A stretch of DNA of 16,202 bases from Candidatus Hydrogenedens sp. (lineage in GTDB: Bacteria > Hydrogenedentota > Hydrogenedentia > Hydrogenedentales > Hydrogenedentaceae): assembly GCA_049968235.1 (NCBI GenBank), contig JBMFRC010000035.1, positions 1-16,202 of the forward strand. The letters are read 5' to 3'. The position numbers and the translations under genes are program-made. The stretch's first letter is position 1. Every line of letters begins with the position of its first letter. Positions 1 to 16,202 of this stretch are shown piece by piece. The notes below the pieces were generated by a model. The model was not told the DNA's origin and did no database searches. It was given only the letters and a program-made list of their open reading frames with translations.

Positions 1-60
1 GTCCCTATTTTTATTAACCAGAAAAAAACATACGAAATCATAAAAATAATAGAAAACAGA

Positions 61-264
61 ATGGAAGAATTAACCAAGTATTATCAGGTTACAAGAACAC
101 AGACCTTCGCCCTTCGTATTGCTTATGAATCTTTACTTGAACTTGAAAAAGAAAAAATAAAAATAAAAGAAAGAGAGAATGAAATAGAAAACAAATACAA
201 AAATGCCATAAAGAATCTGGAGAAAATAATTCAGAAAATCAAAAATCGTTTTGAAGAGGGATAA
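61..264 (+). CDS. hypothetical small charged, probably coiled-coil protein (67 aa)
   Basis: Only plus-strand ORF that does not overlap a strong minus-strand gene. Lys/Glu-rich heptad-like sequence. No convincing SD upstream. No family recognised. Confidence 0.25.
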   Translation: MEELTKYYQVTRTQTFALRIAYESLLELEKEKIKIKERENEIENKYKNAIKNLEKIIQKIKNRFEEG

Positions 265-561
265 TACGGATTAAAAATAAAGTTAAAATAAAATATCATT
301 ATAAGTAAAAAAGTTTATATTATGTCTGATAATATATATTATGTTTCTAAATTGCAACCAAAAGTATTAATCTACCCATAAACAATAAATATAATTCATT
401 ATATTTTTGTCAATATAACATATAATATATTTTGTTATTTAATTATTGTATCTTACTTTGTATCAGTATATTATAAATATAATAGGTTTTGTTAATTTGA
501 TTTTTATCGGGTTTGTTTGATTGAAAATTGGAAGATATATTTTTAATTTAAAAAGGATTCT

Positions 562-1677
562 TTATATTTTCATCAATTCATGAACTAAATGAAGAAGGAA
601 ATCGCGATTATCCATTGTTAAATAATGGAAAGTCCCCCCCATTCGTGAAAAGGATTTATTAAATCTAAGATAATACTCAGGTCTATCCATAGGAGGTTCT
701 CCCTGCGACCAATCCCATTTTGATTCCTGTAGGTCAACAACAACAATAAAATGATTAGAAATAGGTTTTCCTTTTTGTATTGCAATATTTTGCGACATTG
801 ACAAAGATTTTTCGAAAACCATCGGGGACATTACAGCGGAACCAATACTAATATACACTCCATCTTCTAAATTAGAAACAGAATGAGCAAAAGTAAGAAA
901 ATCTCTCTGGGCTGTTTTTCCTATTGATGAACAACAATTCATAGGATGAGTATAAATTATATCATGTCCTATCATAGGATGGGCTGTAAAAGGAATTTTA
1001 TGTCGAAATGCACACGCTTGCAAACCAAATTTCTTAAAAGGATGTTTTACAGACAAAAAACCTTCTTTAAGAGAAAATTCTCTAACTTTTTGAAGTAAGT
1101 CACATATGGCAGAACAAAGTTCCGGATTATCTTTTATATTATTATTTAACATATTTAACAATTCATTCTCAGTAGGAATATAAAGTCCTTCATTTTCAAC
1201 AAAAGAACCGATAGATTCGCCGTATCCTTTACCTTCAAAGGCTCCAACTACTAAAGATAAATTAAGGTAAAATCCTGTTTCTTCCCAGATACCGAACTCT
1301 CCCCTACTTACATTGGTTCGTACATCTTCACTGCTATGTCCCTGATAACTAAACTCCCAGTCATGAATGATTCCTGCACCATTTGTCGCTAAGTGTGTAA
1401 TCCATTTGTTCTCAATCAGCCACATTATTATTGGAGCCAAACCATTTTTTATCGAATGAGCACCAAACACAAGCATACGAGAACGATTTTTTTCTTTTGC
1501 AAGTATTAGTCGCTCTATTGTTTGCAATAAAATTTTTTTTGATAGGTCGTTTAATTGGATTTTAGGTTCATCTTTTGGGTAAACAGCGTCTTTTTCTATG
1601 TAAACCTTGTCTTTTCTTTGATTTAAAGGCTTGAATTTTATCTTAAAACGGTCAAAATAGGGATAGGGCATAAGCAC
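562..1677 (-). CDS. deoxyhypusine synthase-like protein (DHS/homospermidine synthase family), 371 aa
   Basis: Long ORF in the same orientation as the upstream genes, with a 14-nt gap. The segment LVFGAHSIKNGLAPIIMWLIENKWITHLATNGAGIIHDWEF aligns by eye with the DHS segment [40 protein letters not shown]. The family call is from memory and tentative. Confidence 0.45.
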   Translation of the reverse strand: MLMPYPYFDRFKIKFKPLNQRKDKVYIEKDAVYPKDEPKIQLNDLSKKILLQTIERLILAKEKNRSRMLVFGAHSIKNGLAPIIMWLIENKWITHLATNGAGIIHDWEFSYQGHSSEDVRTNVSRGEFGIWEETGFYLNLSLVVGAFEGKGYGESIGSFVENEGLYIPTENELLNMLNNNIKDNPELCSAICDLLQKVREFSLKEGFLSVKHPFKKFGLQACAFRHKIPFTAHPMIGHDIIYTHPMNCCSSIGKTAQRDFLTFAHSVSNLEDGVYISIGSAVMSPMVFEKSLSMSQNIAIQKGKPISNHFIVVVDLQESKWDWSQGEPPMDRPEYYLRFNKSFSRMGGTFHYLTMDNRDFLLHLVHELMKI

Positions 1678-2618: not shown

Positions 2619-5205
2619 TAAATTTCTCAATATCTTTTCCTCCCGCCTGAGCAAAATCTTTCCTTCCGCCTCCTTTTCCTCCTACAATTTGTGCTAACTG
2701 GTTAACTATATCAGAAGAACTAAACTTATCAATTAAATCCTTTGTAACTCCTACACAGAAAGTGGCCTTATCTTCATATTTTATCCCTACAACTACAATT
2801 CCAGATTTAATCTTATCTTTCAAATGGTCTACAAGTGTTCGTGCCTGATTAATATCTTCATTTTCCAATACTAATGTTATAAAATTAACACCATCAATGG
2901 ATTTCACATTTTTCGACAAATCTTTCCCTTCACCTAACAATGCCTGTCGTTTCCATTTTTCTAATTCTTTATAGAGTTTTCTATTTTCTTCAATTATTTG
3001 TAATATTCGTTCTTGTAATCCTTCCGGAGATGAATTTATAGTTTCCGAAATTTCTTTTATCATTCGTTCTGTTTTCTGTATCCAATTGATAAAAGGTTCC
3101 CCGCATATAGCTTCAATTCTACGAACCCCAGCGGATACGGAGGATTCTGACAGAATCTTAAAACCACCTATAACGCCAGTTTGAGAAACATGACATCCTC
3201 CACAAAATTCGGTACTAATACCGTCAATTTTAACTACTCGCACTATGTCTCCATATTTTTCCCCAAATAAAGCCATAGCCCCTAATTTTCTGGCTTCATC
3301 TATGGGAAGATATAAAATCTCAACATTGTAATCTTCTCTAATTTTTTCATTAACCCATTTTTCAATATCCAAAATACGGTCATAACCTACTGCCTCAAAA
3401 TGGGTAAAATCGAAACGCAATCTTTCTTCAGAAACCAGAGAACCACATTGATGAACATGTTCACCTAAAATATCGCGAAGTGCGGATTGAAGTAAATGAG
3501 TTGCGGTATGGTGGTTTTGAATAGTGAGCCTTCTTTTATAGTCAATGATGGCATTGATATCTTCACCTGTTTTAAACTGTCCATTAACTACTTTCACATA
3601 GTGGACAAACAGTTTATCTAATATTTTTTTTGTATCTGTTACTTCCGCAAGTGTTTTCCCATCCAATCCTGACAGAATACCTATATCACCTACCTGACCA
3701 CCACTTTCAGCATAAAAAGGAGTTTTATTTAGAATAATCCATCCTTCTTCTCCTTCTTTTAATTCTTCTATAATATTACTTTCCTTTACAATGGCTATAA
3801 TTTTACAAACCGCTGTATTTTGTTCATAACCTATAAATTCTGTTTCACCGTATTGGGCTAAAATCTGGTGATACACAGGGGATATTTCCTGTTGACCACT
3901 TCCTACCCATGTTTTCCGGTTAAATTCTCTTTGTTTCTCTTTCGCTTTTATGTATCCATCTTCATCTAATTCAAAACCTTTCTCTTCAGCCATATCCTTC
4001 ACTATATCAAGAGGAAAACCGTATGTGTCATGTAGTTTAAAAAGAATATCTCCCGGTATAAGTTTTTCCCCTTTACTAATCATATCTTCAAAAAGTTCTT
4101 TCAATATATCCATACCACGAGATAAAGTACTACCGAACCGCTCTTCTTCAAGATTTATAATTTTTTCAATTTGTGTCTGTGTTTCTAACAATTCCGGATA
4201 ATATTTACCCATATTTTGTATTACGACTTTTGAAATTTGATGTAAAAATGGTTTAACCAGTCCAATTTCTCTACCAAATCGTGAAGCCCGTCTTAATATT
4301 CTTCTCCAAACATATCCCCTTCCCTCATTTGCGGGTAAAATCCCGTCAGCAGTCATGAAGGATAATGCTCGAATATGGTCTGCTATAACGCGGAAAGGAA
4401 TAGGATTTTCTTGATAAGAACATGTAGCAATTTCCTGAGTAATTTCTATGATTGGAAACAAAACATCGGTATCAAAAACAGTTGTCTTATTTTGTAGTAA
4501 TAAGCACATTCTTTCTAATCCCATTCCTGTATCAATTCCCCGATTTTTTAACGGTAACCGTGTTCCATCCACCTGCTGGTCATATTGGGGAAAAACCAGA
4601 TTCCAGAATTCTAAAAAACGCTCATGGGGGTCATTTTCAGGCGTAGCATTAGGGTCAATGTCCTCACCTTTATCAAAAAGAAGTTCAGAACAAGGTCCAC
4701 AGGCACCTGAATCCCCCGCAGGTCCCCAAAAATTGTCCTTTGCTCCCAAACGAACTATTCTTTTTTCAGGTACTCCAATCTCTTTATTCCATATATCAAA
4801 AGCCTCATCATCTTCTTCATAGACCGATACCCATATTTGTTCCGGTTTTATTTTCATAACTTGTGTTGAATATTCCCATGCCCATTGTATAGCCTCTCTT
4901 TTAAAGTAATCACCAAAAGAAAAATTCCCGAGCATTTCAAAAAAGGTTAAATGACGGGATGTCTTCCCTACTTCCTCTAAATCATTGGCTTTCCCTCCTG
5001 CTCTTAAGCATTTCTGAACTGTTGAAGCCCTCCGATATGGAACAGGAACTTCCCCTGTATAATAAGGTTTAAATTGAACCATTCCTGCACTGGTAAAGAG
5101 CAGTGTTGGGTCATTTTTGGGAATTAATGTATCACTTTTTTCGATAACATGACCTCTGTTTCTGAAAAAATCTAAAAAACTCTCACGAATTTCATAACTT
5201 TTCAC
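2557..5205 (-). CDS. alaS: alanine--tRNA ligase (alanyl-tRNA synthetase), 882 aa, GTG start
   Basis: N-terminus MKSYEIRESFLDFFRNRGHVIEKSDTLIPKNDPTLLFTSAGMVQFKP, class II catalytic core, editing domain (HHTATHLL...CGGCHV) and C-terminal DHHA1-like tail. The start codon is GTG, with GGAGAAA 6 nt upstream. Confidence 0.97.
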   Translation of the reverse strand: MKSYEIRESFLDFFRNRGHVIEKSDTLIPKNDPTLLFTSAGMVQFKPYYTGEVPVPYRRASTVQKCLRAGGKANDLEEVGKTSRHLTFFEMLGNFSFGDYFKREAIQWAWEYSTQVMKIKPEQIWVSVYEEDDEAFDIWNKEIGVPEKRIVRLGAKDNFWGPAGDSGACGPCSELLFDKGEDIDPNATPENDPHERFLEFWNLVFPQYDQQVDGTRLPLKNRGIDTGMGLERMCLLLQNKTTVFDTDVLFPIIEITQEIATCSYQENPIPFRVIADHIRALSFMTADGILPANEGRGYVWRRILRRASRFGREIGLVKPFLHQISKVVIQNMGKYYPELLETQTQIEKIINLEEERFGSTLSRGMDILKELFEDMISKGEKLIPGDILFKLHDTYGFPLDIVKDMAEEKGFELDEDGYIKAKEKQREFNRKTWVGSGQQEISPVYHQILAQYGETEFIGYEQNTAVCKIIAIVKESNIIEELKEGEEGWIILNKTPFYAESGGQVGDIGILSGLDGKTLAEVTDTKKILDKLFVHYVKVVNGQFKTGEDINAIIDYKRRLTIQNHHTATHLLQSALRDILGEHVHQCGSLVSEERLRFDFTHFEAVGYDRILDIEKWVNEKIREDYNVEILYLPIDEARKLGAMALFGEKYGDIVRVVKIDGISTEFCGGCHVSQTGVIGGFKILSESSVSAGVRRIEAICGEPFINWIQKTERMIKEISETINSSPEGLQERILQIIEENRKLYKELEKWKRQALLGEGKDLSKNVKSIDGVNFITLVLENEDINQARTLVDHLKDKIKSGIVVVGIKYEDKATFCVGVTKDLIDKFSSSDIVNQLAQIVGGKGGGRKDFAQAGGKDIEKFNEALENVPRIIKMFNKANKS

Positions 5206-5300: not shown

Positions 5301-5336
5301 AAAAAAGAAGAGAGAACAACATTATGTCCTCTCTTC
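5301..5336 (-). terminator. rho-independent terminator of the riboswitch-controlled gene
   Basis: On the minus strand: GAAGAGAG-(14-nt loop)-CTCTCTTC followed by TTTTTTAC. It lies 30 nt after the stop codon of the 5367..6698 gene. Confidence 0.6.
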
Positions 5337-5366: not shown

Positions 5367-6698
5367 CTACAATATTGATACACTCCTCTTCAGTCTATAA
5401 AAGGCTAATAGCGACAATGAAAGAATCATTATTATAAGAAATATAGGTTTATATAAAGGCAATCTATTTTCTGTAACGATAATATGAACAGTATAGATGG
5501 CTTTTTCATTTCCGTAACTACATATATATGTCCCTGTATCTTCAGGTTGTGCATTATAAATTAATAACTTTTTACAATGTATTCCTGAAATTCTGGGATT
5601 TGTGCTTATATCACCATTTATTTTACTCCATGTAAATTGTGTTCCTTCGGGAACTATTTCACCAAAAATATCAAGACAGACATCCTCACCAGAACGATAA
5701 ATAGATTTTCTAACGGAATTACAATCTGGACACTCTTCCTGTTCTGTTCTTAAGATGAGGTATCCCCTGTTATTTACTATTGCCAATATTGTATCTGAAT
5801 ATGGATTATAAAAAGCAGAATAATATCCCTGATTATTTGCGGGGTCCCAAACACGAACGATTTCACCTGTGGATGGATTTATTTCTTGTATTCCGCCCGG
5901 AAGCATAAAGCCTTCTGAACCAGCAACAATCAGGAGATTATCATTGCTTATTCCAGATACTCCACCTGTGAAATAAACCCCGGATGTCCCAACCGGTATT
6001 CCATCTATATTCCAATCAAGTGTAGTGTGAGTATTATATGCGTTGACTAAAGAGGATATTGAAAATTTACGTATTTCACGAGCATTACCATCCATTATAT
6101 AAACCCAAGTATCATCTTTTGCTAACGTAGCAGAATAGGCAAAGGGTGGCTTATCTATAACCATATCTTTGTTGAGTGATTTAGGTTTCATTAAAACAAA
6201 ATGGGAAATATTTTCATTTTTTTCATTTAGTGGTAAAATATGGATTTCACTTCCTGAAAAATCAGATTTTGTGACATCGAGTAGTAACAGGTCTGATGTT
6301 AAATAAATACCATAATAATGACTGATATTTGCAATAATAGACAATGGTGTAAAGTTCTGTGGATTTGTTAAATCAAGGAGATATATATCTCCTAAATATC
6401 CCTGTCCTAATATTGCTTTTTTTTCATCCGGACTAATTGCAACAAAAGCAGGGTCTCCTTGATAGCCTTCTGCAATCAAGAAATAATTGTCATTTTTGGG
6501 AGCAATCTGTTTATAGACCTGATTCCCATTCCAGATTAAAAAAGTGCCATCACTGAGAGGAGCAGAAGTAACAAAATATGAACCGGATGCAGGTTGTGGA
6601 ATATTAGGCAAAGGAATTACTGTTTCAGCCATAGCACTTAAAACTAATAAAAGGGAACTAAGAACAAAAACAGATTTAGCATAATTATAGAGAAACAT
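5367..6698 (-). CDS. uncharacterised secreted, membrane-anchored protein with beta-rich (propeller-like) repeats and a C-terminal Ig-like domain; cobalamin-riboswitch controlled
   Basis: N-terminal signal peptide MFLYNYAKSVFVLSSLLLVLSAMA|ETV. Body rich in G/Y/N/T beta-strand repeats. Ig-type signature near the C-terminus (FTWSK...NAQPEDTGTYICSY...YTVHIIV). Terminal TM helix plus basic tail (PIFLIIMILSLSLLAFYRLKRSVSIL). Strong SD GAAGGAGGA 7 nt upstream of the ATG. Confidence 0.8.
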   Translation of the reverse strand: MFLYNYAKSVFVLSSLLLVLSAMAETVIPLPNIPQPASGSYFVTSAPLSDGTFLIWNGNQVYKQIAPKNDNYFLIAEGYQGDPAFVAISPDEKKAILGQGYLGDIYLLDLTNPQNFTPLSIIANISHYYGIYLTSDLLLLDVTKSDFSGSEIHILPLNEKNENISHFVLMKPKSLNKDMVIDKPPFAYSATLAKDDTWVYIMDGNAREIRKFSISSLVNAYNTHTTLDWNIDGIPVGTSGVYFTGGVSGISNDNLLIVAGSEGFMLPGGIQEINPSTGEIVRVWDPANNQGYYSAFYNPYSDTILAIVNNRGYLILRTEQEECPDCNSVRKSIYRSGEDVCLDIFGEIVPEGTQFTWSKINGDISTNPRISGIHCKKLLIYNAQPEDTGTYICSYGNEKAIYTVHIIVTENRLPLYKPIFLIIMILSLSLLAFYRLKRSVSIL

Positions 6699-6765
6699 AA
6701 TTTTCCTCCTTCTGAGTTTAAATTTAATTCTTTTTTTTCGTTCATTTGTTAAAAAGGGAGGAAAA
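6699..6765 (-). promoter_or_regulatory. riboswitch expression platform: anti-SD (UUUUCCUCCCUUUUU, 6751..6765) able to pair with the SD (AGAAGGAGGAAAAUU, 6699..6713)
   Basis: About 10 nt of direct complementarity between the two elements, which are separated by about 40 nt. This is the typical translational OFF-switch arrangement of B12 riboswitches. Confidence 0.55.
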
Positions 6766-6842
6766 GTAGGCAGGTAAGGCTTTCACAGAAGGAGAAATGC
6801 CATCCTGCAACAACCTTTCCGCGAGTTGTTACAGTCACATTT

Positions 6843-6989
6843 CCTGACCAATGCAGGTCTTCTGGCTTCCGGTTCATCCTACTTATCACGCCTTCCCGTT
6901 ATTACAGTGGCTTTTTGTGACTTTCGTACCCGGTTACAGCAGCGCGTCTGCGACGGACTTTCACCGTGCTTCCCTATACATCAGTCAGG
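6843..6989 (-). promoter_or_regulatory. cobalamin (AdoCbl/B12) riboswitch aptamer
   Basis: Minus-strand RNA: CCUGACUGAUG UAUAGGGAAGCACGGUGAAAGUCCGUCGCAGACGCGCUGCUGUAACCGGG...AAGCCACUGUAAUAACGGGAAGGCGUG...GGAAGCCAGAAGACCUGC AUUGGUCAGG. The conserved AGGGAA, GGUGnAAnUCC, GCnGnnCnCUGUAA, GCCACUG and GGGAAGGC elements are all present. The B12-box consensus rAGYCMGgAgaCCkGCc is matched by AAGCCAGAAGACCUGCA. An 11-bp P1 helix (CCUGACUGAUG/CAUUGGUCAGG) closes the aptamer. The region is GC-rich (about 50%) against a 30% background. Confidence 0.9.
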
Positions 6990-7030
6990 TTCCTTAATTT
7001 TCACCTCCTTTCCATAAGTTGTTTATGAAT

Positions 7031-8129
<1,099 letters not shown>

Positions 8130-8140
8130 TCAATATCCTT

Positions 8141-8599
8141 TTATTCATTTTTACATTCCACTGATATATATACAGGGTAATCATCCAGACTTAGTTCAAC
8201 AAAATCTGCATCTTGTCTTATCTTTTCCCATTGTTCTTCATTAATTTCCTCTGCTGAAGGAGGCTGAAGTTCAAATACAGGTTCTGTCCCGGCTAATGAA
8301 GTTAAAAAATTTCCACAAAAAATATTTAAAAACTCACAAAGAGCATCTTTAGGTTCTACTTCTATATCCGTTTCTTCTTCATCAATACCTAAAACATTAC
8401 TCATCATTTCTCTGCACAATTCCTCCGGAGTTACAATGATGGCATTGCCTTTATACGGACCGGAAAAAGACATTTCAGCCTTGATATAGGGTGGCATTGC
8501 ATCCTGTTGCTCAGACCAATCATCTGCAAACATAAAAGCAAACTCTTTTGCCACATCAGTTAATACCTTTTTAATTAATTCTTTGTCCATTTCATTCAT
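8141..8599 (-). CDS. acidic CheC/CheX-family phosphatase-like protein (divergent CheX paralog)
   Basis: 152 aa, very acidic. The segment ALCEFLNIFCGNFL matches the CheX active-site region AVGELANMISGNAK (E-x2-N...GN). It overlaps the preceding cheY by 8 nt, which suggests translational coupling. Confidence 0.5.
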   Translation of the reverse strand: MNEMDKELIKKVLTDVAKEFAFMFADDWSEQQDAMPPYIKAEMSFSGPYKGNAIIVTPEELCREMMSNVLGIDEEETDIEVEPKDALCEFLNIFCGNFLTSLAGTEPVFELQPPSAEEINEEQWEKIRQDADFVELSLDDYPVYISVECKNE

Positions 8600-8981
8600 T
8601 TCCAGATACTCCCAAAAGTTCTATAACCAAATTTTTTAACGATTCCGGTGTGAACGGTTTTCTAAGGTACGCTTTAACTCCTTTCGATTTCAATTCTTCA
8701 ACACGTGTTTGACTTCCTTCTGTGGATACAATGGCGATAGGAATGGTCTTTAAAAGTTCATCCTGATTCATCTCATTTATCAACTCAACTCCATTCATAA
8801 CGGGCATGTTAATATCCGTTAAAACAAGGTCAACCCAATTACTTCGCAGTATATCCAATGCTTCCTTCCCATTACTTGCATGGAGAATATTTCCTATTTC
8901 CACACCAGACAATCGCAAGGTCTTTTCCATCACGGCTCGCACTGTTGTTGAATCATCAACAATCAAAATATTGATACTCAT
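8592..8981 (-). CDS. cheY: CheY-like single-domain response regulator
   Basis: ILIVDDSTTVRAV...LVLTDINMPVMNG...KAYLRKPF: receiver domain with the conserved Asp pocket and the phospho-acceptor Asp in LTD. A 4-nt ATGA overlap with the upstream HDOD gene. Confidence 0.9.
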   Translation of the reverse strand: MSINILIVDDSTTVRAVMEKTLRLSGVEIGNILHASNGKEALDILRSNWVDLVLTDINMPVMNGVELINEMNQDELLKTIPIAIVSTEGSQTRVEELKSKGVKAYLRKPFTPESLKNLVIELLGVSGNE

Positions 8982-9838
8982 GTAATTTCTCCTGATTTTA
9001 AATTGTCCAGAAATGCTTCTATCTCCCCAATTAATTTAGATAGAACAACTTCCACAATTTGCATATCTATTTTCAATCGTTCTATAGAATGGATATTATT
9101 TGAATAATTTAAACCGTCTATTCCAGAACCAATGCCACATTCCAGACATAAATTACTTGCAATATGGATAAAATCAGCAACCAGACGATATTCTTCCGGA
9201 GCATTATCCGGCTCATGGTGATATAAGACAGGTTGAACTAAGTTATTGGGGAAATGCCACTCCTGCATTAATAAAGCGCCTACCTCCGAGTGGTCAATAC
9301 CTAAAATTTCTTTCTCTGCTTTTTCAAAAGATAGTTTCTCATCGTATGCCTTTTTTACTATAGGTTCCGCATCTATTTCTACAAAGGTTCCCAACACTAT
9401 TTTACCAATATCATGGAGTAATCCTACCGTAAAAGTATAAGGAGGAATATCTATTTTTAATTCTTTTCCCAGTAATTCACTGGCTATTGCAGTTCCTATT
9501 AAATGTTTTATTAGTTCTCCTGCAGGTAAGTCATATCCTCGAAGTGGTTTTACAACCGTCGGGAAAATTGTCGATGCAATAATCATCTGCTGAATTCTGT
9601 TTATCCCTAATAATACAACTGCCTCACGGACAGTACTTATTTTTTTAGGACCCGCAAAATATGCTGAATTGGCTAACTTTAATATATTTGCAGTTAATGT
9701 CGGGTCCATTTCCAATTCTTTAGATATATCTAATATTGGGGATTCTTTATTGTTTATCTTGCTTAAAATACGAGCAGTATTTGCAGGGAAAGCAGGTACT
9801 TCTTTAATTTTTTCTATAATTTTCTCTCGTATAGTCAT
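8978..9838 (-). CDS. HDOD domain protein (HD-related output domain)
   Basis: PAFPANTARILSKINNKESPILDISKELEMDPTLTANILKLANSAYFAG...LLGINRI...LLHDIGKIVL: the canonical HDOD N-terminal motif string. 286 aa with no other domain. Confidence 0.85.
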   Translation of the reverse strand: MTIREKIIEKIKEVPAFPANTARILSKINNKESPILDISKELEMDPTLTANILKLANSAYFAGPKKISTVREAVVLLGINRIQQMIIASTIFPTVVKPLRGYDLPAGELIKHLIGTAIASELLGKELKIDIPPYTFTVGLLHDIGKIVLGTFVEIDAEPIVKKAYDEKLSFEKAEKEILGIDHSEVGALLMQEWHFPNNLVQPVLYHHEPDNAPEEYRLVADFIHIASNLCLECGIGSGIDGLNYSNNIHSIERLKIDMQIVEVVLSKLIGEIEAFLDNLKSGEIT

Positions 9839-9852
9839 TCTATTTTTTCCTA

Positions 9853-10329
9853 TTACAATTCATATTCTTTCCCGGCACTTTTAATTGTTGTTTTACCATC
9901 ATTAATATATAAATACATCGTTCTCGCTAATGTTCCACCAATATCTTCTGATGAAATTAGTATATTATTTTTCCAGAGGAGTTTTCTCACTACAATGTGA
10001 TTTCTTTCCCCGATTCGGAACATTTCGTTATCATCTAACAGAACAGCACCACCAGCAACTTTAGCTATCATTCTTTTTTTATCTGCACCCATATTAATTA
10101 GTGTTTGCATCATTAGTGGCAAACCTGTATCTACAAACATGTATGGGGCTTCTCTGGCTCGTTCAGGGTCAACCTTCGATAAAGGTAACATGCAGTGAAT
10201 AAGTCCACCTATCTTCTGGAGTGGGTCATATAAAACAACACCTACACATGAACCCAAAGAATATGTAACTAACACATCCTCCGGATTACTTGAAACTTTC
10301 ATATCCGATATATTTACAGTAATTAACAC
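9853..10329 (-). CDS. cheD: chemoreceptor glutamine deamidase CheD (paralog 2)
   Basis: The LGSCVGVVLYDP...GGLIHCMLP motif region is typical of CheD, and the size is about 158 aa. Confidence 0.85.
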   Translation of the reverse strand: MLITVNISDMKVSSNPEDVLVTYSLGSCVGVVLYDPLQKIGGLIHCMLPLSKVDPERAREAPYMFVDTGLPLMMQTLINMGADKKRMIAKVAGGAVLLDDNEMFRIGERNHIVVRKLLWKNNILISSEDIGGTLARTMYLYINDGKTTIKSAGKEYEL

Positions 10330-10356
10330 CTTATAACACCTTTAATATTTTCTAAT

Positions 10357-11160
10357 CTATGGTTTATAGTAAATGGAAGGTTTTACTATTCGGAAACCCG
10401 TTTGTATCGAGGTAATACTTTCGGAATGTCCAACGAATAAATATCCTTTGGGTTTAAGAAGACGGTATATTTCATTGACCAGCATATTTCTAACTTTTTC
10501 ATCGAAGTATATCATCACATTCCTGCAAAATATTATATCAAAGGGTCCCTTCATAGGATAGGGAGTTTCTATTAAATTTAACCTCGAAAACGTAATTAAT
10601 TTTTTAATCCTATCTGACACCACGTATACCCAGTCATTCCCAACTTTCTTTTTTTCAAAATACTTCTGTAGTAAATATCCCGGAATATTCTCTACTTTAT
10701 GCGAATAGTATTCCCCCTTTTTAGATTGCTCTAATACTCGCGTCGATATGTCCGTGGCAAGAATTTTTAAATCTACAAAGGAACTATTAAGGGCTTCCAT
10801 AGCAGTAATGGCAATAGTATAAGGTTCCTCACCTGTGGAACAAGCAGATGACCATATTCTAAATTTTGTTTGCCCTTCTTCCTTCCATTCCATTAACTTC
10901 TCTTTTAAAAATTCAAAATGGTCGCTTTCCCGGAAAAAATGTGTCACATTCGTTGATATATAATCAATCAGTTTTATAATTTCCTGTCCTGATTTATCGT
11001 TTATTACATACTCGTAATAATCCTTAAAATCATTAATTCCTAAAGTGCGAATCCTTTTTGAAAGCCTCCCAACTACAAGTGCTTTTTTCTGGTCACTTAG
11101 ATGAATACCACTAGTTTCATATATCAATTGTCGAAATCTGTTGAATAAATTATTATCCAT
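10357..11160 (-). CDS. cheR: chemotaxis protein methyltransferase CheR
   Basis: N-terminal CheR helical domain (FRQLIYETSGIHLSDQKKALVVGRLSKRIR) and the SAM-binding fold motif IWSSACSTGEEPYTIAI...DIIFCRNVMIYFD. Confidence 0.95.
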   Translation of the reverse strand: MDNNLFNRFRQLIYETSGIHLSDQKKALVVGRLSKRIRTLGINDFKDYYEYVINDKSGQEIIKLIDYISTNVTHFFRESDHFEFLKEKLMEWKEEGQTKFRIWSSACSTGEEPYTIAITAMEALNSSFVDLKILATDISTRVLEQSKKGEYYSHKVENIPGYLLQKYFEKKKVGNDWVYVVSDRIKKLITFSRLNLIETPYPMKGPFDIIFCRNVMIYFDEKVRNMLVNEIYRLLKPKGYLFVGHSESITSIQTGFRIVKPSIYYKP

Positions 11161-11169
11161 ATACGCTCT

Positions 11170-11679
11170 CTATTCTTCAGGTAATTCTAAAATCCAATCT
11201 TCTTTTCGTATTTGATAAACTTTTAAGACAATAATATGACCTGTATAACTATTAAAAACGATTTTTCTGCCCATATTTCCTCCAACATCTTCTGATACAA
11301 TCTTTATACCTTTACTTTTCAATATTTTCCGGGCAACTTCCACATTATCTTTACCAATATCTTTGCTTTTACTATTAAAAGGAGGAACTGCACCTCCTAC
11401 GATTTGGGCAAAAATGGAATTTGTTCTGGCGCCTGCCTTTTCCATCATTTGTATTAGTTGAAGTGTTGCCACATTACCATATTGGGAAGTGGCTTTATCT
11501 TTTGATGATACACTGGGATAAAGAAAATGGTTCATTCCCCCTATCTTTAATTTTTTATCCCATAGACAAACAGATACACATGACCCCAGAACAGCATACA
11601 AATTTGTGGGAACAGTGGGAAGATAGATATACCCCGGTTCAATAAATACCTGCTGATACGATGTCAATTCTTTTGACAT
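11170..11679 (-). CDS. cheD: chemoreceptor glutamine deamidase CheD (paralog 1)
   Basis: LYAVLGSCVSVCLWD...GGMNHFLYP and the C-terminal GGNMGRKIVF region. CheD family, 169 aa. Confidence 0.85.
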   Translation of the reverse strand: MSKELTSYQQVFIEPGYIYLPTVPTNLYAVLGSCVSVCLWDKKLKIGGMNHFLYPSVSSKDKATSQYGNVATLQLIQMMEKAGARTNSIFAQIVGGAVPPFNSKSKDIGKDNVEVARKILKSKGIKIVSEDVGGNMGRKIVFNSYTGHIIVLKVYQIRKEDWILELPEE

Positions 11680-11695
11680 TTATTTTCTCGTTTTA

Positions 11696-12067
11696 CTATT
11701 GACCTTTACTTTTGTTTAACACTTCTTGAATTTTCCCAACGATAGTGTTAGGTTCAAAAGGTTTAATTACATAATTCGTTGCACCTGCTTTTAATGCTTC
11801 TAATACTCTGCTTTTTTCCGCTTCGGTTGTAACCATAATAATCGGCATTGTTTTACCCATTTCACGGATTGCTTTTAATGCATCAATTCCCAACATATTG
11901 GGCATATTCCAATCCATTAAAATAATATCATAGTCGTTTTGTTGAACAGCCTGTACTGCTTCTGCTCCATCCGCCGCCTGGTCAACCTCGTTTATATTTG
12001 CTCTACCTAATGCTCCAATCAATACTTTTCTCATTACTGCAGAATCATCAACAACCAATGCCCTCAT
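11696..12067 (-). CDS. cheY: chemotaxis response regulator CheY
   Basis: MRALVVDDSAVMRKVL...DIILMDWNMPNMLGIDAL...NYVIKPF. Classic CheY, 123 aa. Confidence 0.95.
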   Translation of the reverse strand: MRALVVDDSAVMRKVLIGALGRANINEVDQAADGAEAVQAVQQNDYDIILMDWNMPNMLGIDALKAIREMGKTMPIIMVTTEAEKSRVLEALKAGATNYVIKPFEPNTIVGKIQEVLNKSKGQ

Positions 12068-12083
12068 TATTTACACCTCTTTC

Positions 12084-12551
12084 CTATTTTTCTGGTTCAA
12101 ATGTGACCCGTAGCGTAAACGGACCTAATTCACTATCAAAGTTTATTTCTATCCATACAGAATTTGTAGGATAATCTACTGAAAAGTCTCCACCACGAAC
12201 TACTGTGGGTAAACTTAAATCCAAAGGCTTCTCATCACCTGTATTTAATCTCGCTTTTGCTCCTCCTGCAACGATATTCACCATCTCAGCAATAGCATCA
12301 GATACGGTATCATCCATAATCTTTATATCTGCATTTAGCAATTTATTTACCATAGCAAGAGCAGTAGAAACAGGAAAAGCAAGGGCAACCATTCCACGTA
12401 CCCTTCCACTAATCCCAATTAACGCCATTATGTCTCGCGGATTGGCTGATTTTGCTATTCCTACATTTTTTCGTTCCGCTTTTGCATTTAACATTGTTGT
12501 AAATAAATCATATACACTTTCTATAAACGGATTGATATGTTCAGCCTTCAT
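12084..12551 (-). CDS. cheX: CheY-P phosphatase CheX
   Basis: 155 aa. INPFIESVYDLFTTML N-terminus, AEMVNIVAGGAK active-site motif (E-x2-N) and a C-terminal beta region. It resembles spirochaete/Thermotoga CheX. Confidence 0.8.
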   Translation of the reverse strand: MKAEHINPFIESVYDLFTTMLNAKAERKNVGIAKSANPRDIMALIGISGRVRGMVALAFPVSTALAMVNKLLNADIKIMDDTVSDAIAEMVNIVAGGAKARLNTGDEKPLDLSLPTVVRGGDFSVDYPTNSVWIEINFDSELGPFTLRVTFEPEK

Positions 12552-12588
12552 AATACTCCTGTACCTTTTTATTTATTTCTATTTAATT

Positions 12589-13092
12589 TCAAAGAGAACT
12601 CAAACTTTGTATTTCATTGGCGGTTAATACTTTATCTATATCCAAAAGTATAACCACCGCTTCGCCTAATTTTCCCATCGCCATAATAAATGCAGTATCA
12701 ATACTTGCTCCAAAAGAAGGAGCAGGTTCTATTTGATTCTCTGCTATATCTACAACCTCTGAAACTTCATCTACGATTATACCCATAGTTATAGGACCAA
12801 CATTTCCCATAACTTGAACAACAATTATACAGGTATGGTCCGTATCTTCTACGGTTTCCATATCAAATTTCTTACGAAGTTCAATAACAGGAATTACTTT
12901 ACCTCTTAGATTAATTACACCACGAACAAAATTAGGTGTTCTCGGGATAGAGGTAATACTCATCAGTCCAATTATTTCCTGTACCTTCAGTATCTCTATT
13001 CCATAGGTTTCATGAGACAACTTAAATGTGAGATACTTGCCTGCTAATGATTTTAACTCGTGCTTGCTTGTGGTTTTTTCTTGTTCTGTCAT
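12589..13092 (-). CDS. cheW: chemotaxis coupling protein CheW
   Basis: KYLTFKLSHETYGIEILKVQEIIGL...VRGVINLRGKVIPVIELRKKF. CheW fold, 167 aa. Confidence 0.95.
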   Translation of the reverse strand: MTEQEKTTSKHELKSLAGKYLTFKLSHETYGIEILKVQEIIGLMSITSIPRTPNFVRGVINLRGKVIPVIELRKKFDMETVEDTDHTCIIVVQVMGNVGPITMGIIVDEVSEVVDIAENQIEPAPSFGASIDTAFIMAMGKLGEAVVILLDIDKVLTANEIQSLSSL

Positions 13093-13141
13093 GGCTATGT
13101 TCCTTTTGTTACATTCTATTTATTTTACACAATTTATATAC

Positions 13142-15949
13142 CTATACAAAAGTAGTGGATTCTTCTGCTAATTTTAGTATTCCTGCAATATCTAAAATTA
13201 GACCTACTTTACCATCCGGCATAATAGCTCCCCCTGCAATTCCCGGTACACCCTTTAAGGCTTCTCCCAAAGATTTAATTACAATTTGCTGTTGACCCAA
13301 TATCTCATCTACTAACAAACCCACCTGAGAATTGCCCGTTTCTACGACCACAATAGTTCCTTCCGTATATTCTTCAACAGCATTGGGAATATTAAATAAT
13401 TTATTTAATCTGTATAAATTTATTAGTTTTCCATGGAACGATAAAACTTCGCCTTTTCCAACTACAGTATTTATCTCTTTTTTTGTCGGTCTTAATGATA
13501 TTATAATAGACAATGTCGGGATAATATATCTTTCCATTCCCACGCGAACAACCATTCCATCAATAATTGCCAATGTTAAGGGTAATCGTATTGTAAACAC
13601 AGTCCCTTTTCCCGGTGTAGATTGAATTTCCACATGCCCTCTTAAAGCCTCTATATTCTTCTTTACCACATCCATACCTACACCGCGACCGGATACCTCT
13701 GTTACAACCTTTGCTGTAGAAAAGCCCGGTTCAAATATAAGATTCCATACTTCACGATCTGATAGACCTTCCTCAGAACGAATTAGCCCTCGTTCTATTG
13801 CCTTTTTTATAATGGCTTCTCGATTAAGCCCTGCTCCATCATCTTCAACTTGTATATGTATATTTCCGCCAGCATGATATGCCCTGAGATATATATTCCC
13901 TATAGGCGGTTTTCCATGTTTAATTCGTTCCTCCGGATTACTTTCAATTCCGTGGTCCACCGAATTGCGAACCATATGAACAAGCGGGTCTCCTATTTTA
14001 TCAACCACAGTCTTATCTAATTCCGTATCTTCTCCACTGGTATGAAATTCAATCAACTTCCCCGTTTTTTTGGATAAATCGCGAACCAGCCGTGCCATTT
14101 TTTGAAATGTGCTTTTTATCGGTATCATCCGAAGAGACATCGCCATAAGTTGTAATTCTCTTGTTATCTTATCCAATTGCCCCATATATCTCGACAAATC
14201 CGTATACAAATCCCCATTTATTTCTACCTCTCTTGCAACCATAGATTCAGCAATAACTAACTCACCAATCATATCCACAAGTTGGTCTAATCGATTGGCA
14301 TCTACTTTTATTGCTTCCGCTACACTTGCTTGAGGTGCTAATGATTGTGCCCGTTGTGTGCGAAGTGCCTGAACGACTTCTTTCGCATTAGCTTCTCCAG
14401 TCTGAACCAGCAATTCTCCCAATTTCGGAGGTTCCTGGGATTGCTTCTGTTTTTCTATTGCATTTTGAATTTCCTCCTCCGTAGCAAAACCCAATTCTAC
14501 TACAATTTCTCCTATAAGTTTGTTCGGGAATTCAGTTTTTTGTAATTCCAATACCTTTTCTAATTGCTTTGAAGATATAACATTATATTTAACTAATATT
14601 TCTCCCACTGCTACAGGTTCTGTTGGACTTTTCTGTAATATTAGGGCTCGCTTTACACTATCTTCAGATATAGATTCAGAACCTACCATTATCTCGCCCA
14701 ATCGGGATATATTTTTCCCCGGTTTTTCACGAAATATTGTCGTTACCTTTTTACCTTGCAAAACCCGATGAATATTCTCAATCAATTCTCCCGAGTTTTC
14801 TTGCGGAATTACAGGTTCCCCTGTGGTCAACGCTTTTCGAACAGCATTTACACACTCCTTCAATGTATCTACCGCTTCAAAGACAACATCAATAGCATTA
14901 CCCACAAGTAACATTTCTTTTTTTCTTGCACGGTCTAATAAATTTTCCGCTTCGTGCGATATCTGTTTAATCTCGTCTAATCCTAAAAAACCTGACACTC
15001 CTTTAATTGTATGAAAGGCTCGAAACACCGCATTTATTGCATCCTTATCTTCCGGGTCTGTTTCCAGAGTAAGCAAGTGGACATCACAGTTATCTAAATG
15101 TTCTGTTGCTTCTTGAATAAAATCTTTCACTAAATCAAGGTCACCTTCTAAAACTTTTGGTTCGAATTTCTTCGTCTCTGCTACTTGTTGTTCTGTTTTT
15201 TCTCCCGCATCTTTTCTACTCTCCTTTGCCAATTTCTTCCTTAATTCATTAGGAAACAGAGGCATAGGTCCCTTCCCGGCAATAGCATCAAATTTCTTTT
15301 TCAACCAGTCTTTTAATGTAAACAAATCATCGACCAATTCTTGAGTTACCCCCTGTTCAATTCGGTCTTCTGCTAAATGACATAAGTCCTGAATATCATT
15401 TAACCCTAAAATCCCCGTTTCTCCTTTTAATGTATGAATCTTCCTCTTCAATTCTGCAATTACTTCCTGTTTATCCCCATCTTCTTTATAACTCAATAAC
15501 AACGCTTCCATTTCTTCCAGATTAGAATCCTGAGATTGAATAAACTGTTGGAATATTTCTGGGTCAACATTTTCTGGCAACTCAAATACCTGCCCCGAAC
15601 CTTGAACTATGATATTCTCTATTCTCTTTTGTTGCAATTCATTCGGATAAATTACTTCAGATTCACTGACTCCGGCTACAATTAACTGCTGTATGGAACT
15701 GATGACTTGAGATAAAGTTTTCAAGGCTTCATCAGGGTTGGACATTTCCTGTAAAACAATCTTTTCTATCCAATCCGCACTATTATCCGCAACTATAGCC
15801 GTTCTAAGAAAACCCTGCGAATTTGCCCATTCCCGTATCTCGATAAGACAGGTATGCATTTGTGCCAATTCCTGTAAATCTCCAGGACTTACAAATACCG
15901 CCAATTCACTTAATTTCTCTATTGTCTTCTGAATTTCTATTTCCACCAT
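13142..15949 (-). CDS. cheA: chemotaxis histidine kinase CheA, atypical: two Hpt (HxxKG) domains and four MshEN-like 24-aa motifs in place of a P2 domain
   Basis: Hpt motifs IHTLKGETGILGL and AFHTIKGVSGFLGL. P3 dimerisation region (IKVDANRLDQLVDMIGELVIAES). HATPase N/G1/F/G2 boxes (HMVRNSVDHGIE, VEDDGAGLN, FEPGFST, GRGVGMDVV). C-terminal CheW-like P5 domain. SD GGAGA 8 nt upstream of the ATG. Confidence 0.97.
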   Translation of the reverse strand: MVEIEIQKTIEKLSELAVFVSPGDLQELAQMHTCLIEIREWANSQGFLRTAIVADNSADWIEKIVLQEMSNPDEALKTLSQVISSIQQLIVAGVSESEVIYPNELQQKRIENIIVQGSGQVFELPENVDPEIFQQFIQSQDSNLEEMEALLLSYKEDGDKQEVIAELKRKIHTLKGETGILGLNDIQDLCHLAEDRIEQGVTQELVDDLFTLKDWLKKKFDAIAGKGPMPLFPNELRKKLAKESRKDAGEKTEQQVAETKKFEPKVLEGDLDLVKDFIQEATEHLDNCDVHLLTLETDPEDKDAINAVFRAFHTIKGVSGFLGLDEIKQISHEAENLLDRARKKEMLLVGNAIDVVFEAVDTLKECVNAVRKALTTGEPVIPQENSGELIENIHRVLQGKKVTTIFREKPGKNISRLGEIMVGSESISEDSVKRALILQKSPTEPVAVGEILVKYNVISSKQLEKVLELQKTEFPNKLIGEIVVELGFATEEEIQNAIEKQKQSQEPPKLGELLVQTGEANAKEVVQALRTQRAQSLAPQASVAEAIKVDANRLDQLVDMIGELVIAESMVAREVEINGDLYTDLSRYMGQLDKITRELQLMAMSLRMIPIKSTFQKMARLVRDLSKKTGKLIEFHTSGEDTELDKTVVDKIGDPLVHMVRNSVDHGIESNPEERIKHGKPPIGNIYLRAYHAGGNIHIQVEDDGAGLNREAIIKKAIERGLIRSEEGLSDREVWNLIFEPGFSTAKVVTEVSGRGVGMDVVKKNIEALRGHVEIQSTPGKGTVFTIRLPLTLAIIDGMVVRVGMERYIIPTLSIIISLRPTKKEINTVVGKGEVLSFHGKLINLYRLNKLFNIPNAVEEYTEGTIVVVETGNSQVGLLVDEILGQQQIVIKSLGEALKGVPGIAGGAIMPDGKVGLILDIAGILKLAEESTTFV

Positions 15950-16021
15950 ACATCAAATCTCCATCGTATTATTTTGCTAAAATTACATTAAATATTTTAG
16001 CACGAATAATACACATTTAAC

Positions 16022-16058
16022 CCTATTCGTGGCTATAATACACAGCCACGAATAGGGC
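16022..16058 (-). terminator. perfect 14-bp inverted repeat with a 9-nt loop (CCCTATTCGTGGCT...AGCCACGAATAGGG): probable terminator hairpin of the upstream gene, or an operator
   Basis: GC-rich stem in an AT-rich spacer, 18 nt after the stop codon of the partial upstream gene. The 3' flank on the minus strand (TTAAATGTGTATTATT) is only moderately U-rich. Confidence 0.4.
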
Positions 16059-16075
16059 ACATAATTAAATCAATC

Positions 16076-16202
16076 TTAAAATCCCTTTAAATCCTCATCA
16101 TCTAAAGGTATAACCTGTTCCGGATTTACCACATTCGATTTCGGAGCATGATGTGCCGACGGTAATGCATGTATATCCTTACGGGGCTTTCTACGGTCAA
16201 TC
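16076..16202 (-). CDS. 3' end of an unidentified gene running off the window (…IDRRKPRKDIHALPSAHHAPKSNVVNPEQVIPLDDEDLKGF*)
   Basis: It is the only stop-free frame across the last 124 nt. It is in the same orientation as the che operon, and the hairpin lies immediately downstream. Too short to assign a family. Confidence 0.3.
   Translation of the reverse strand, partial: IDRRKPRKDIHALPSAHHAPKSNVVNPEQVIPLDDEDLKGF

What the first reader, a model, noticed from the sequence alone, without database searches (positions are those of the whole stretch)
6843..6989. Canonical cobalamin riboswitch, GC-rich, embedded between a chemotaxis operon and an orphan surface-protein gene
Every conserved block of the B12 element is readable on the minus strand. 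They are AGGGAA, GGUGAAAGUCC, GCAGACGCGCUGCUGUAACC, GCCACUG, GGGAAGGC and the B12 box AAGCCAGAAGACCUGCA. An 11-bp P1 helix with two G-U pairs closes the aptamer. The block-for-block resemblance to the E. coli btuB leader is striking. The six-frame track only shows a spurious 63-aa plus-strand ORF here.
Basis: partly seen in the sequence, partly recalled or inferred. Interest (0 to 1): 0.6.

Follow-up and report, generated by a model that had tools for sequence, protein, structure and literature searches.

The report
B12 riboswitch controlling unknown secreted propeller
This is a genuine vitamin-B12-sensing RNA switch of a well-known kind, but in this uncultured phylum (Hydrogenedentota) it almost always sits in front of an uncharacterised exported propeller-shaped protein, which is therefore a good candidate for a new B12-scavenging protein.

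Summary
Window 6998..6835 (minus strand) matches Rfam RF00174 end to end at 94.5 bits (gathering 31.5, E 8e-23), slightly above the E. coli btuB leader (87.0 bits). The downstream gene is not an orphan. The switch lies in the 5' leader of ORF 6698..5367, a 443-aa protein with a signal peptide, a six-bladed beta-propeller with no Pfam/PDB sequence match, an Ig domain and a C-terminal hydrophobic anchor. A terminator follows it. The organism is a Candidatus Hydrogenedens MAG. The RNA-gene link is almost absolute: 79 of 80 testable homologous loci carry an RF00174 aptamer directly upstream. This holds down to ~25% protein identity, in unrelated gene neighbourhoods, and before separate paralogues. 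The expression platform resembles btuB: a covarying P13 hairpin whose UCGCG loop complements L5 (ACGCG), followed by pyrimidine tracts complementary to the Shine-Dalgarno sequence. The most likely mechanism is a B12-repressed translational OFF switch. The riboswitch is a new member of a known kind. The regulated protein family is unannotated and unmentioned in the papers searched, and I infer, without proof, that it acts in corrinoid acquisition at the cell envelope.

The parts
6835..6998 (-). Cobalamin riboswitch aptamer (full RF00174 match); the P1-to-P1 core is 6843..6989
   Evidence: 94.5 bits, E 8e-23, model positions 1-189/189; all conserved blocks read directly from the sequence.
6978..6989 (-). 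P1 helix, 5' strand (CCUGACUGAUGU)
   Evidence: It pairs with 6854..6843 over 11-12 bp including G.U pairs. Compensatory changes are seen in L003 and L004.
6843..6854 (-). P1 helix, 3' strand (GCAUUGGUCAGG)
6943..6947 (-). L5 loop ACGCG, the predicted kissing-loop partner of L13
   Evidence: alignment (P5/L5 columns). L5 is [A/U]CGCG in nearly all related leaders. E. coli btuB has the same L5.
6852..6868 (-). B12 box AAGCCAGAAGACCUGCA
6807..6832 (-). P13 hairpin of the expression platform (GUAACAAC / GUUGUUGC) with L13 loop UCGCGGAAAG (6824..6815)
   Evidence: present in the minimum-free-energy fold; covariation in 58 unique leaders, 7.10 of 8 canonical pairs against 6.47 +/- 0.07 with swapped partners, 0 of 500 swaps reaching the observed value; btuB has the equivalent hairpin and UCGCG loop.
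6770..6808 (-). Second platform hairpin (P14: GCAGG...CCUGC) whose loop holds anti-SD1
   Evidence: -10.5 kcal/mol. The stem is conserved and covaries across leaders.
6786..6797 (-). Anti-SD1, UUUCUCCUUCUG, complementary to 6714..6703
   Evidence: duplex -18.5 kcal/mol, 0 of 200 shuffles as good. The pairing covaries in L004 and L013.
6757..6766 (-). Pyrimidine tract / anti-SD2, CUUUUCCUCC, part of the CCUGCCUnCUUUUCC motif that is invariant in the six-leader alignment and recurs in many, not all, leaders
   Evidence: invariant columns. (motif found in a subset of leaders); 9 bp with GGAGGAAAA. Alternative partners are L13 GGAAAGG or the aptamer core GGGAAGGCG..AGUAGGA.
6701..6714 (-). Shine-Dalgarno region (GGAGG 6709..6705), 6 nt before the AUG at 6698
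5367..6698 (-). Regulated gene: 443-aa exported protein. Signal peptide ~1-24, six-bladed beta-propeller ~25-325, Ig-like domain ~333-407, C-terminal hydrophobic helix 418-442 with a basic tail
5307..5336 (-). Intrinsic terminator ending the monocistronic unit, upstream of alaS
   Evidence: 12-bp stem followed by a T-run.

Best explanation
Window 6998..6835 (minus strand) is a functional cobalamin (corrinoid) riboswitch with the btuB-like design. It sits in the 5' leader of a monocistronic gene (6698..5367) for an exported, C-terminally anchored six-bladed beta-propeller protein. Most likely it is a repressing (OFF) switch acting mainly on translation. When a corrinoid binds, the aptamer core closes and L5 (ACGCG) forms a kissing loop with L13 (UCGCG), which locks hairpin P13. 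The pyrimidine tracts downstream (anti-SD1 in the P14 loop and the CUUUUCCUCC tract after P14) are then free to pair with the Shine-Dalgarno region and block initiation. Without ligand, P13 is not locked. The purine run GGAAAGG of L13/P13-3' (or the aptamer's own GGGAAGGCG..AGUAGGA) pairs with the pyrimidine tract, extending P14, and the newly made SD stays open. What is shown: family membership, position, conservation of the RNA-gene link, P13 covariation, and SD/anti-SD complementarity. What is inferred: the sign of regulation, the exact alternative pairing, and the protein's role. I take that role to be capture or hand-over of corrinoids at the cell envelope when B12 is scarce.
Against: No experiment exists: ligand binding, the sign of regulation and the kissing loop are all inferred. 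Thermodynamic folding keeps the SD paired in every minimum-free-energy structure, so an ON state must be kinetic. Two anti-SD candidates compete for the same SD, and I cannot say which is used. In 44 of 58 related leaders the second hairpin is followed by a U-tract, so termination may contribute in other lineages. The protein has no sequence or specific fold link to any known B12 binder. No BtuB or BtuFCD gene is adjacent in any locus examined. Six-bladed propellers of this type are often enzymes. One homologue (L024) has no riboswitch.
Confidence: 0.85

Rival explanations
1. The switch acts mainly by premature transcription termination. With ligand bound, the P14 hairpin plus the following U-rich tract stops RNA polymerase, and SD pairing is secondary.
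For: In 44 of 58 related leaders a hairpin (dG of -6 kcal/mol or lower) ends 0-9 nt before a U-tract. CCUGCCUnCUUUUCC is invariant in the six-leader alignment.
Against: In the window the U-run is only 4 U and starts 4 nt after the stem. The terminator scan finds nothing in the leader. The tract is complementary to each locus's own SD and covaries with it. The two mechanisms are not mutually exclusive.
Confidence: 0.25
2. It is an activating (ON) corrinoid riboswitch, like A. halodurans cobT, and induces the protein when corrinoids are present.
For: Activating corrinoid switches exist and also use the L5-L13 kissing loop (PMC10327014). The outermost 2 bp of P13 overlap the base of P14.
Against: In the activating type, P13 shares its 3' side with the terminator or sequestering helix. 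Here P13 shares no bases with either anti-SD, so locking P13 leaves both anti-SDs free to block the SD. The design mirrors the repressing btuB leader.
Confidence: 0.07
3. The regulated propeller is not a corrinoid binder. It could instead be an envelope enzyme (lactonase- or hydrolase-like), a cobalt-related protein, or an adhesin made under B12 limitation.
Against: NHL and PknD-type binding domains score equally well. The near-absolute riboswitch linkage across paralogues and contexts points to a role tied directly to corrinoid supply. Every experimentally characterised exported protein under corrinoid-riboswitch control in the review read binds cobamides.
Confidence: 0.3
4. The region encodes the 63-aa plus-strand ORF 6826..7017, and the RNA match is incidental.
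For: The ORF exists, and a stop-free antisense stretch is present in relatives.
Against: The covariance-model E-value is 8e-23. Aptamer lengths in relatives differ by non-multiples of three, so the frame is not kept. Helices change by compensatory substitutions.
Confidence: 0.01

Closest known systems
E. coli btuB leader (cobalamin riboswitch, Rfam RF00174, translational repressing type)
   Same: Both are full-length RF00174 matches (94.5 bits here, 87.0 for btuB). The conserved blocks are the same, and so are the L5 loop (ACGCG) and the UCGCG loop in P13. In both, the platform ends in an RBS-sequestering structure.
   Different: There is no primary-sequence similarity detectable by blastn. 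The optional P2 hairpin is missing (23 consensus positions replaced by 2 nt), which makes a compact 147-nt core. There are two anti-SD tracts and a longer platform of 136 nt. The controlled gene is not a TonB-dependent transporter.
Bacteroides BtuG (surface B12-capturing lipoprotein under riboswitch control)
   Same: Both are exported beta-propeller proteins whose genes lie behind a corrinoid riboswitch. [quoted passage not shown] In this family, conserved residues lie in the loops that usually form one propeller face.
   Different: BtuG has seven blades, an N-terminal lipid anchor, and caps an adjacent BtuB. This protein is predicted to have six blades and no lipobox cysteine. It has a C-terminal helix anchor, no adjacent BtuB, and no sequence match to any PDB chain in the propeller domain at E of 10 or less. 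BtuG is absent from the top 50-60 fold hits.
Six-bladed NHL / SMP-30 / PknD-sensor beta-propellers
   Different: Identity is only 9-14%. No Pfam, NCBIfam or PDB sequence match exists for the propeller domain. None of those families is known to be riboswitch-linked.
Methanosarcina S-layer YVTN propeller + PKD protein (PDB 1L0Q)
   Same: It is the top Foldseek hit, and the architecture is the same: a propeller followed by an Ig-like domain in a cell-envelope protein.
   Different: Identity is 12% with TM 0.36-0.40. It is archaeal and has a different number of blades.

Membership tests
Cobalamin riboswitch (Rfam RF00174) | Covariance-model score at or above the curated gathering score over the whole model | tested here: met
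   94.5 bits against 31.5, positions 1-189/189, E 8e-23
Cobalamin riboswitch (Rfam RF00174) | B12 box and the conserved core blocks (AGGGAA, GGUG..CC, GCCACUG, GGGAAGGC) | tested here: met
   Read directly from the sequence and aligned to the consensus
Cobalamin riboswitch (Rfam RF00174) | P1 helix closing the aptamer, supported by compensatory changes | tested here: met
   11-12 bp at 6989..6978 / 6854..6843. G-C to A-U and U-A to C-G changes are seen in L003 and L004
Cobalamin riboswitch (Rfam RF00174) | L5-L13 kissing loop linking the aptamer to the expression platform | tested here: inconclusive
   A complementary CGCG core is conserved in L5 and L13 in about 58 unique leaders and is identical to btuB. 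Both loops are nearly invariant, so there is no clean covariation, and formation of the loop was not observed
Cobalamin riboswitch (Rfam RF00174) | Located in the 5' leader of a same-strand gene, with an expression platform able to occlude the SD or terminate | tested here: met
   136 nt upstream of the AUG at 6698. The anti-SD/SD duplex is -18.5 kcal/mol, 0 of 200 shuffles as good
Cobalamin riboswitch (Rfam RF00174) | Direct, selective binding of a corrinoid | not testable with these tools
   Requires in-line probing, ITC or a reporter assay
BtuG family (Bacteroidota B12-capturing lipoproteins) | Seven-bladed beta-propeller homologous to BtuG | tested here: not met
BtuG family (Bacteroidota B12-capturing lipoproteins) | N-terminal lipoprotein signal (lipobox Cys) | tested here: not met
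   The signal peptide MFLYNYAKSVFVLSSLLLVLSAMA/E contains no cysteine
BtuG family (Bacteroidota B12-capturing lipoproteins) | Encoded next to, and complexed with, a BtuB TonB-dependent transporter | tested here: not met
   The window gene is monocistronic. None of the 10 downstream ORFs scanned, nor the called neighbours, is a TonB-dependent receptor
BtuG family (Bacteroidota B12-capturing lipoproteins) | Expression under a corrinoid riboswitch | tested here: met
   79 of 80 testable loci
BtuG family (Bacteroidota B12-capturing lipoproteins) | High-affinity cobamide binding | not testable with these tools
   Requires purified protein
PEP-CTERM-type (exosortase-sorted) surface proteins | C-terminal short motif, hydrophobic helix and Arg/Lys cluster recognised by a curated sorting-domain model | tested here: inconclusive
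   All members end in [LVM]P[AL]-like motif, helix and basic tail. Only 2 members hit IPTL-CTERM and 1 hits MYXO-CTERM, all weakly, and the window protein hits none

The most novel reading that the evidence does not exclude
The riboswitch-linked six-bladed propeller defines a new, Hydrogenedentota-wide family of envelope proteins that bind corrinoids. It would be functionally convergent with the seven-bladed BtuG of Bacteroidota but unrelated in sequence, anchoring and gene context. In some lineages it works together with a second conserved secreted partner (the ~460-aa TSP3-repeat protein encoded just downstream).
Probability: 0.45. Interest if true: 0.65.

Novelty: new member of a known kind. 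Interest (0 to 1): 0.42.

Why it matters
The riboswitch itself adds little: it is one more RF00174 member, in an uncultured phylum. Its value is as a pointer to function. A riboswitch that stays attached to one unannotated protein family across about 80 loci, several paralogues and many gene neighbourhoods is among the strongest function predictors available for uncultured bacteria. It marks a modest family (about 75 propeller-domain hits among the 150 best-scoring 50%-identity clusters) of exported propellers as part of corrinoid economy. If these proteins bind B12, propeller-based capture of this scarce cofactor would have arisen independently outside gut Bacteroidota. It would also give a handle on how Hydrogenedentota, common in anaerobic digesters and sediments, compete for or depend on cobamides made by their neighbours.

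Tried and rejected
(1) Coding ORF on the plus strand. Rejected because the frame is not conserved.
(2) Blastn similarity to E. coli. None was found, so the btuB comparison had to go through the covariance model.
(3) BtuG homology. Rejected by fold (six blades), signal peptide, gene context and sequence.
(4) Looking for an adjacent B12 transporter in distant loci. The large downstream ORFs are not TonB-dependent receptors. They are a conserved unknown TSP3-repeat protein, propeller paralogues, or unrelated proteins.
(5) B12-box CCAGAAG pairing with anti-SD1 as the ligand-free competitor. This pairing appears in the window's minimum-free-energy fold but is not conserved in L004 or L013, so I dropped it as a general mechanism.
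(6) The MAFFT alignment of P13 hairpins (A3) put two loop-length classes out of register. I therefore did not use the count of structure pairs on it and ran a partner-swap test instead.
(8) Unconstrained folding of the full leader does not recover the aptamer fold or a clear ON state, so it cannot settle the switching pathway.
(9) A relaxed search for a degenerate aptamer upstream of the L024 homologue found nothing.

Full report
OBSERVATION. An Rfam scan of the whole window returns a single hit: RF00174 (cobalamin riboswitch) at 6998..6835 on the minus strand. It scores 94.5 bits against a gathering score of 31.5, with E 8e-23, covers model positions 1-189 of 189 and is not truncated. P1 is 6989..6979 paired with 6853..6843, which is 11 bp with two G.U pairs. 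The model adds a twelfth pair, U6978.G6854. The optional P2 hairpin of the model is absent (23 consensus positions replaced by 2 nt), which explains the compact 147-nt core. The aptamer is 0.49 GC in a window averaging about 0.35, so it is GC-rich only relative to its surroundings. The 63-aa plus-strand ORF 6826..7017 exists. Related aptamers differ in length by non-multiples of three (164, 165, 171, 175 and 169 nt), so no antisense frame is conserved. The persistent stop-free stretch is a composition effect of a purine-rich RNA.

SURROUNDINGS. Upstream on the same strand lies the end of a chemotaxis operon (CheB 8123..7047, CheX 8599..8141, then further che genes). Downstream on the same strand, 136 nt after the aptamer, a GGAGG (6709..6705) and an AUG (6698) open a 443-aa ORF (6698..5367). 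A 12-bp stem plus T-run terminator at 5336..5307 closes it. alaS, a GDPD-family gene and a 371-aa ORF follow. The exact protein sequence is on record in a Candidatus Hydrogenedens MAG, GCA_049969095.1.

THE LINK BETWEEN RNA AND GENE. This is the main result beyond confirmation. Five homologues fetched by exact protein look-up all have an RF00174 hit (85-99 bits) directly upstream. Two of them, at 35-39% identity, sit in completely different neighbourhoods. A scan of one genome per species found 34 loci. All are labelled Hydrogenedentota or come from MAGs labelled uncultured bacterium, Nitrospirales, Nitrospiraceae or Rhodothermaeota. Rfam finds the aptamer upstream in 16 of the 17 and 13 of the 14 loci scanned, and three further loci duplicate loci already positive. 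A metagenome scan gave 53 more loci down to 25% identity. An nhmmer profile of the aptamers finds it upstream in 45 of them. Seven have too little upstream DNA to test. In L078 the aptamer precedes the first of two tandem paralogues. L038 has an aptamer cut by the contig end. Altogether 79 of 80 testable loci are positive, although a few metagenome loci duplicate genome contigs and there are about 58-62 distinct leader sequences. The single exception is L024, an 877-aa variant with no aptamer even under relaxed search. One MAG has two paralogues (L025, L029), each with its own aptamer, and L017 carries two aptamers in tandem. Such persistence across divergence, paralogy and context means the protein's role is tied to corrinoid supply.

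HOW THE SWITCH PROBABLY WORKS. The platform is conserved well beyond the aptamer. First comes a hairpin, P13 (6832..6807), with loop UCGCGGAAAG. Across 58 unique leaders its stem keeps 7.10 of 8 canonical pairs, against 6.47 +/- 0.07 when 5' and 3' strands are swapped between leaders (0 of 500 swaps reach the observed value). One position splits evenly, 19 A-U to 19 G-C. The loop's CGCG complements the L5 loop ([A/U]CGCG) in essentially all leaders. The E. coli btuB leader, aligned to the same model at 87.0 bits, has the same L5 and a P13 hairpin with loop UCGCGUAAUA. In btuB and env8 the L5-L13 kissing loop stabilises P13 and promotes the RBS hairpin (PMC10327014). Second comes a hairpin, P14 (6808..6770), followed by a pyrimidine tract. 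The motif CCUGCCUnCUUUUCC is invariant in the six-leader alignment and recurs in many, but not all, of the other leaders. Two segments can occlude the SD. UUUCUCCUUCUG in the P14 loop (6797..6786) gives -18.5 kcal/mol with 0 of 200 shuffles as good, and it covaries in L004 and L013. CUUUUCCUCC (6766..6757) forms 9 bp with the SD. Comparable SD-sequestering duplexes occur in distant loci (L018, L020, L040). For the ligand-free state, GGAAAGG of L13/P13-3' (6820..6814) can pair with CUUUUCC (6766..6760) and stack on P14. This gives -17.8 kcal/mol with the SD free, against about -12 to -14 for P13 plus P14 before the SD is transcribed. That fits the experimentally derived rule for repressing corrinoid switches, in which the antisequestor is more stable than P13 unless the kissing loop locks P13. 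The aptamer's own GGGAAGGCG..AGUAGGA is another possible competitor, being the best upstream partner of the tract in 38 of 42 leaders. The activating design requires P13 to share its 3' side with the sequestering or terminating helix. Here only the two outermost base pairs overlap P14 and none overlap either anti-SD, so an OFF switch is the better reading. A contribution from termination cannot be excluded: 44 of 58 leaders have a hairpin followed by a U-tract. In the window, though, the U-run is short and offset, and the terminator scan finds nothing there. All of this is inference from sequence. SD-sequestered structures are the most stable in every fold, so any ON state must be kinetic.

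WHAT THE PROTEIN PROBABLY DOES. Corrinoid riboswitches control corrinoid synthesis, cobalt and corrinoid transport, and B12-independent isozymes (established knowledge). The exported proteins under such control that have been characterised, BtuG, BtuH, BtuJ and others in Bacteroides, all bind cobamides (PMC13616437). An exported, anchored propeller with a conserved face is therefore most simply read as a corrinoid-binding protein made when intracellular B12 is low. It is not a BtuG. It has six blades rather than seven, no lipid anchor, no adjacent BtuB, no sequence similarity, and BtuG is absent from the top fold hits. Its location is also unsettled. After Sec export, a C-terminal helix with a basic tail would hold it on the inner membrane facing the periplasm, unless an exosortase-like system processes it. 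The tail resembles PEP-CTERM-type signals, but only three members give weak hits to such models. An enzyme role (many six-bladed propellers are lactonases or hydrolases), a cobalt-related role, or an adhesin role remain open. Searches of the held papers for Hydrogenedentes with cobalamin, and for cobalamin riboswitch with beta-propeller, found no description of this family or of any such link in this phylum.

VERDICT. As a riboswitch it is ordinary: a new member of a well-known family with a btuB-like platform. The added value is that the supposed orphan gene is its target and belongs to an unannotated, phylum-restricted family whose riboswitch linkage is nearly absolute. That makes it a concrete, testable candidate for a new kind of corrinoid-acquisition protein.

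Noticed in passing
L017:4380-4861: Two complete RF00174 aptamers in tandem (4380-4549 at 96.4 bits and 4661-4861 at 93.7 bits) precede one homologue of the propeller gene. The first aptamer has its own P13-like hairpin.
   Followed up: partly
L015:1297-3711, L017:6298-8130, L019:5097-8108, L020:2591-4882, L027:6880-8571, L040:5942-8089: In six distant loci the riboswitch-controlled propeller gene is followed within -33 to +275 nt (five of the six within 75 nt), on the same strand, by a conserved unannotated protein. These proteins are 43-57% identical over about 460 aa and carry one TSP3 calcium-binding repeat near residue 290. Some of the ORFs run on into an N-methyl/DUF1559 pilin-like module. 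This may be a second member of the regulon, and it is absent from the window.
   Followed up: partly
L025 and L029 (same MAG JBHEKR01); L078:329-1393 plus ~1600-2533; L032, L036 and L037 downstream ORFs: The propeller family is often duplicated. Some MAGs have separate paralogues that each carry their own riboswitch, and others have tandem paralogues behind one riboswitch. Some proteins contain two propeller domains (P0017, P0018, P0025).
   Followed up: partly
L024:4237-7568 (closed genome OY782877.1): This is the only testable homologue without a riboswitch. It is an 877-aa multi-domain variant with a 700-nt upstream intergenic region that has no aptamer, even under relaxed search.
   Followed up: partly
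window 6996..7010 (minus strand): A purine-rich, SD-like run (AAGGAGGUGAAAAUU) lies just 5' of the aptamer. It is shared with the closest relative (L002) but not with L003 or L004. It could be a decoy partner for the anti-SD tracts or simply part of the promoter-proximal leader. No sigma-70-like promoter was found between cheB and the aptamer.
   Followed up: no
window 562..1677 (minus strand): A 371-aa ORF has only a sub-threshold match to deoxyhypusine synthase (PF01916, E 0.002). It is conserved in synteny after the GDPD gene in L002-L004, where the called 369-aa product has no Pfam hit.
   Followed up: no
window 7047..16202 (minus strand): The chemotaxis operon upstream is unusually redundant. 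By synteny with L002 it has two CheD, two CheX, two single-domain response regulators and an HDOD-HD protein, in addition to CheR, CheB and CheW. A 935-aa ORF at 13142..15949 was not examined.
   Followed up: no
L009, L013, L020, L031, L037, L039 (labelled Nitrospirales), L018 (Nitrospiraceae), L038 (Rhodothermaeota): Several MAGs that carry this otherwise Hydrogenedentota-specific riboswitch-gene cassette are labelled as other phyla in their record titles. L013 even shares the che-alaS neighbourhood type. These are probably mislabelled or mis-binned contigs rather than horizontal transfer.
   Followed up: no
window 1..500: The first 500 bases are very AT-rich (GC 0.218, against about 0.35 elsewhere) and contain no long ORF on the minus strand.
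   Followed up: no
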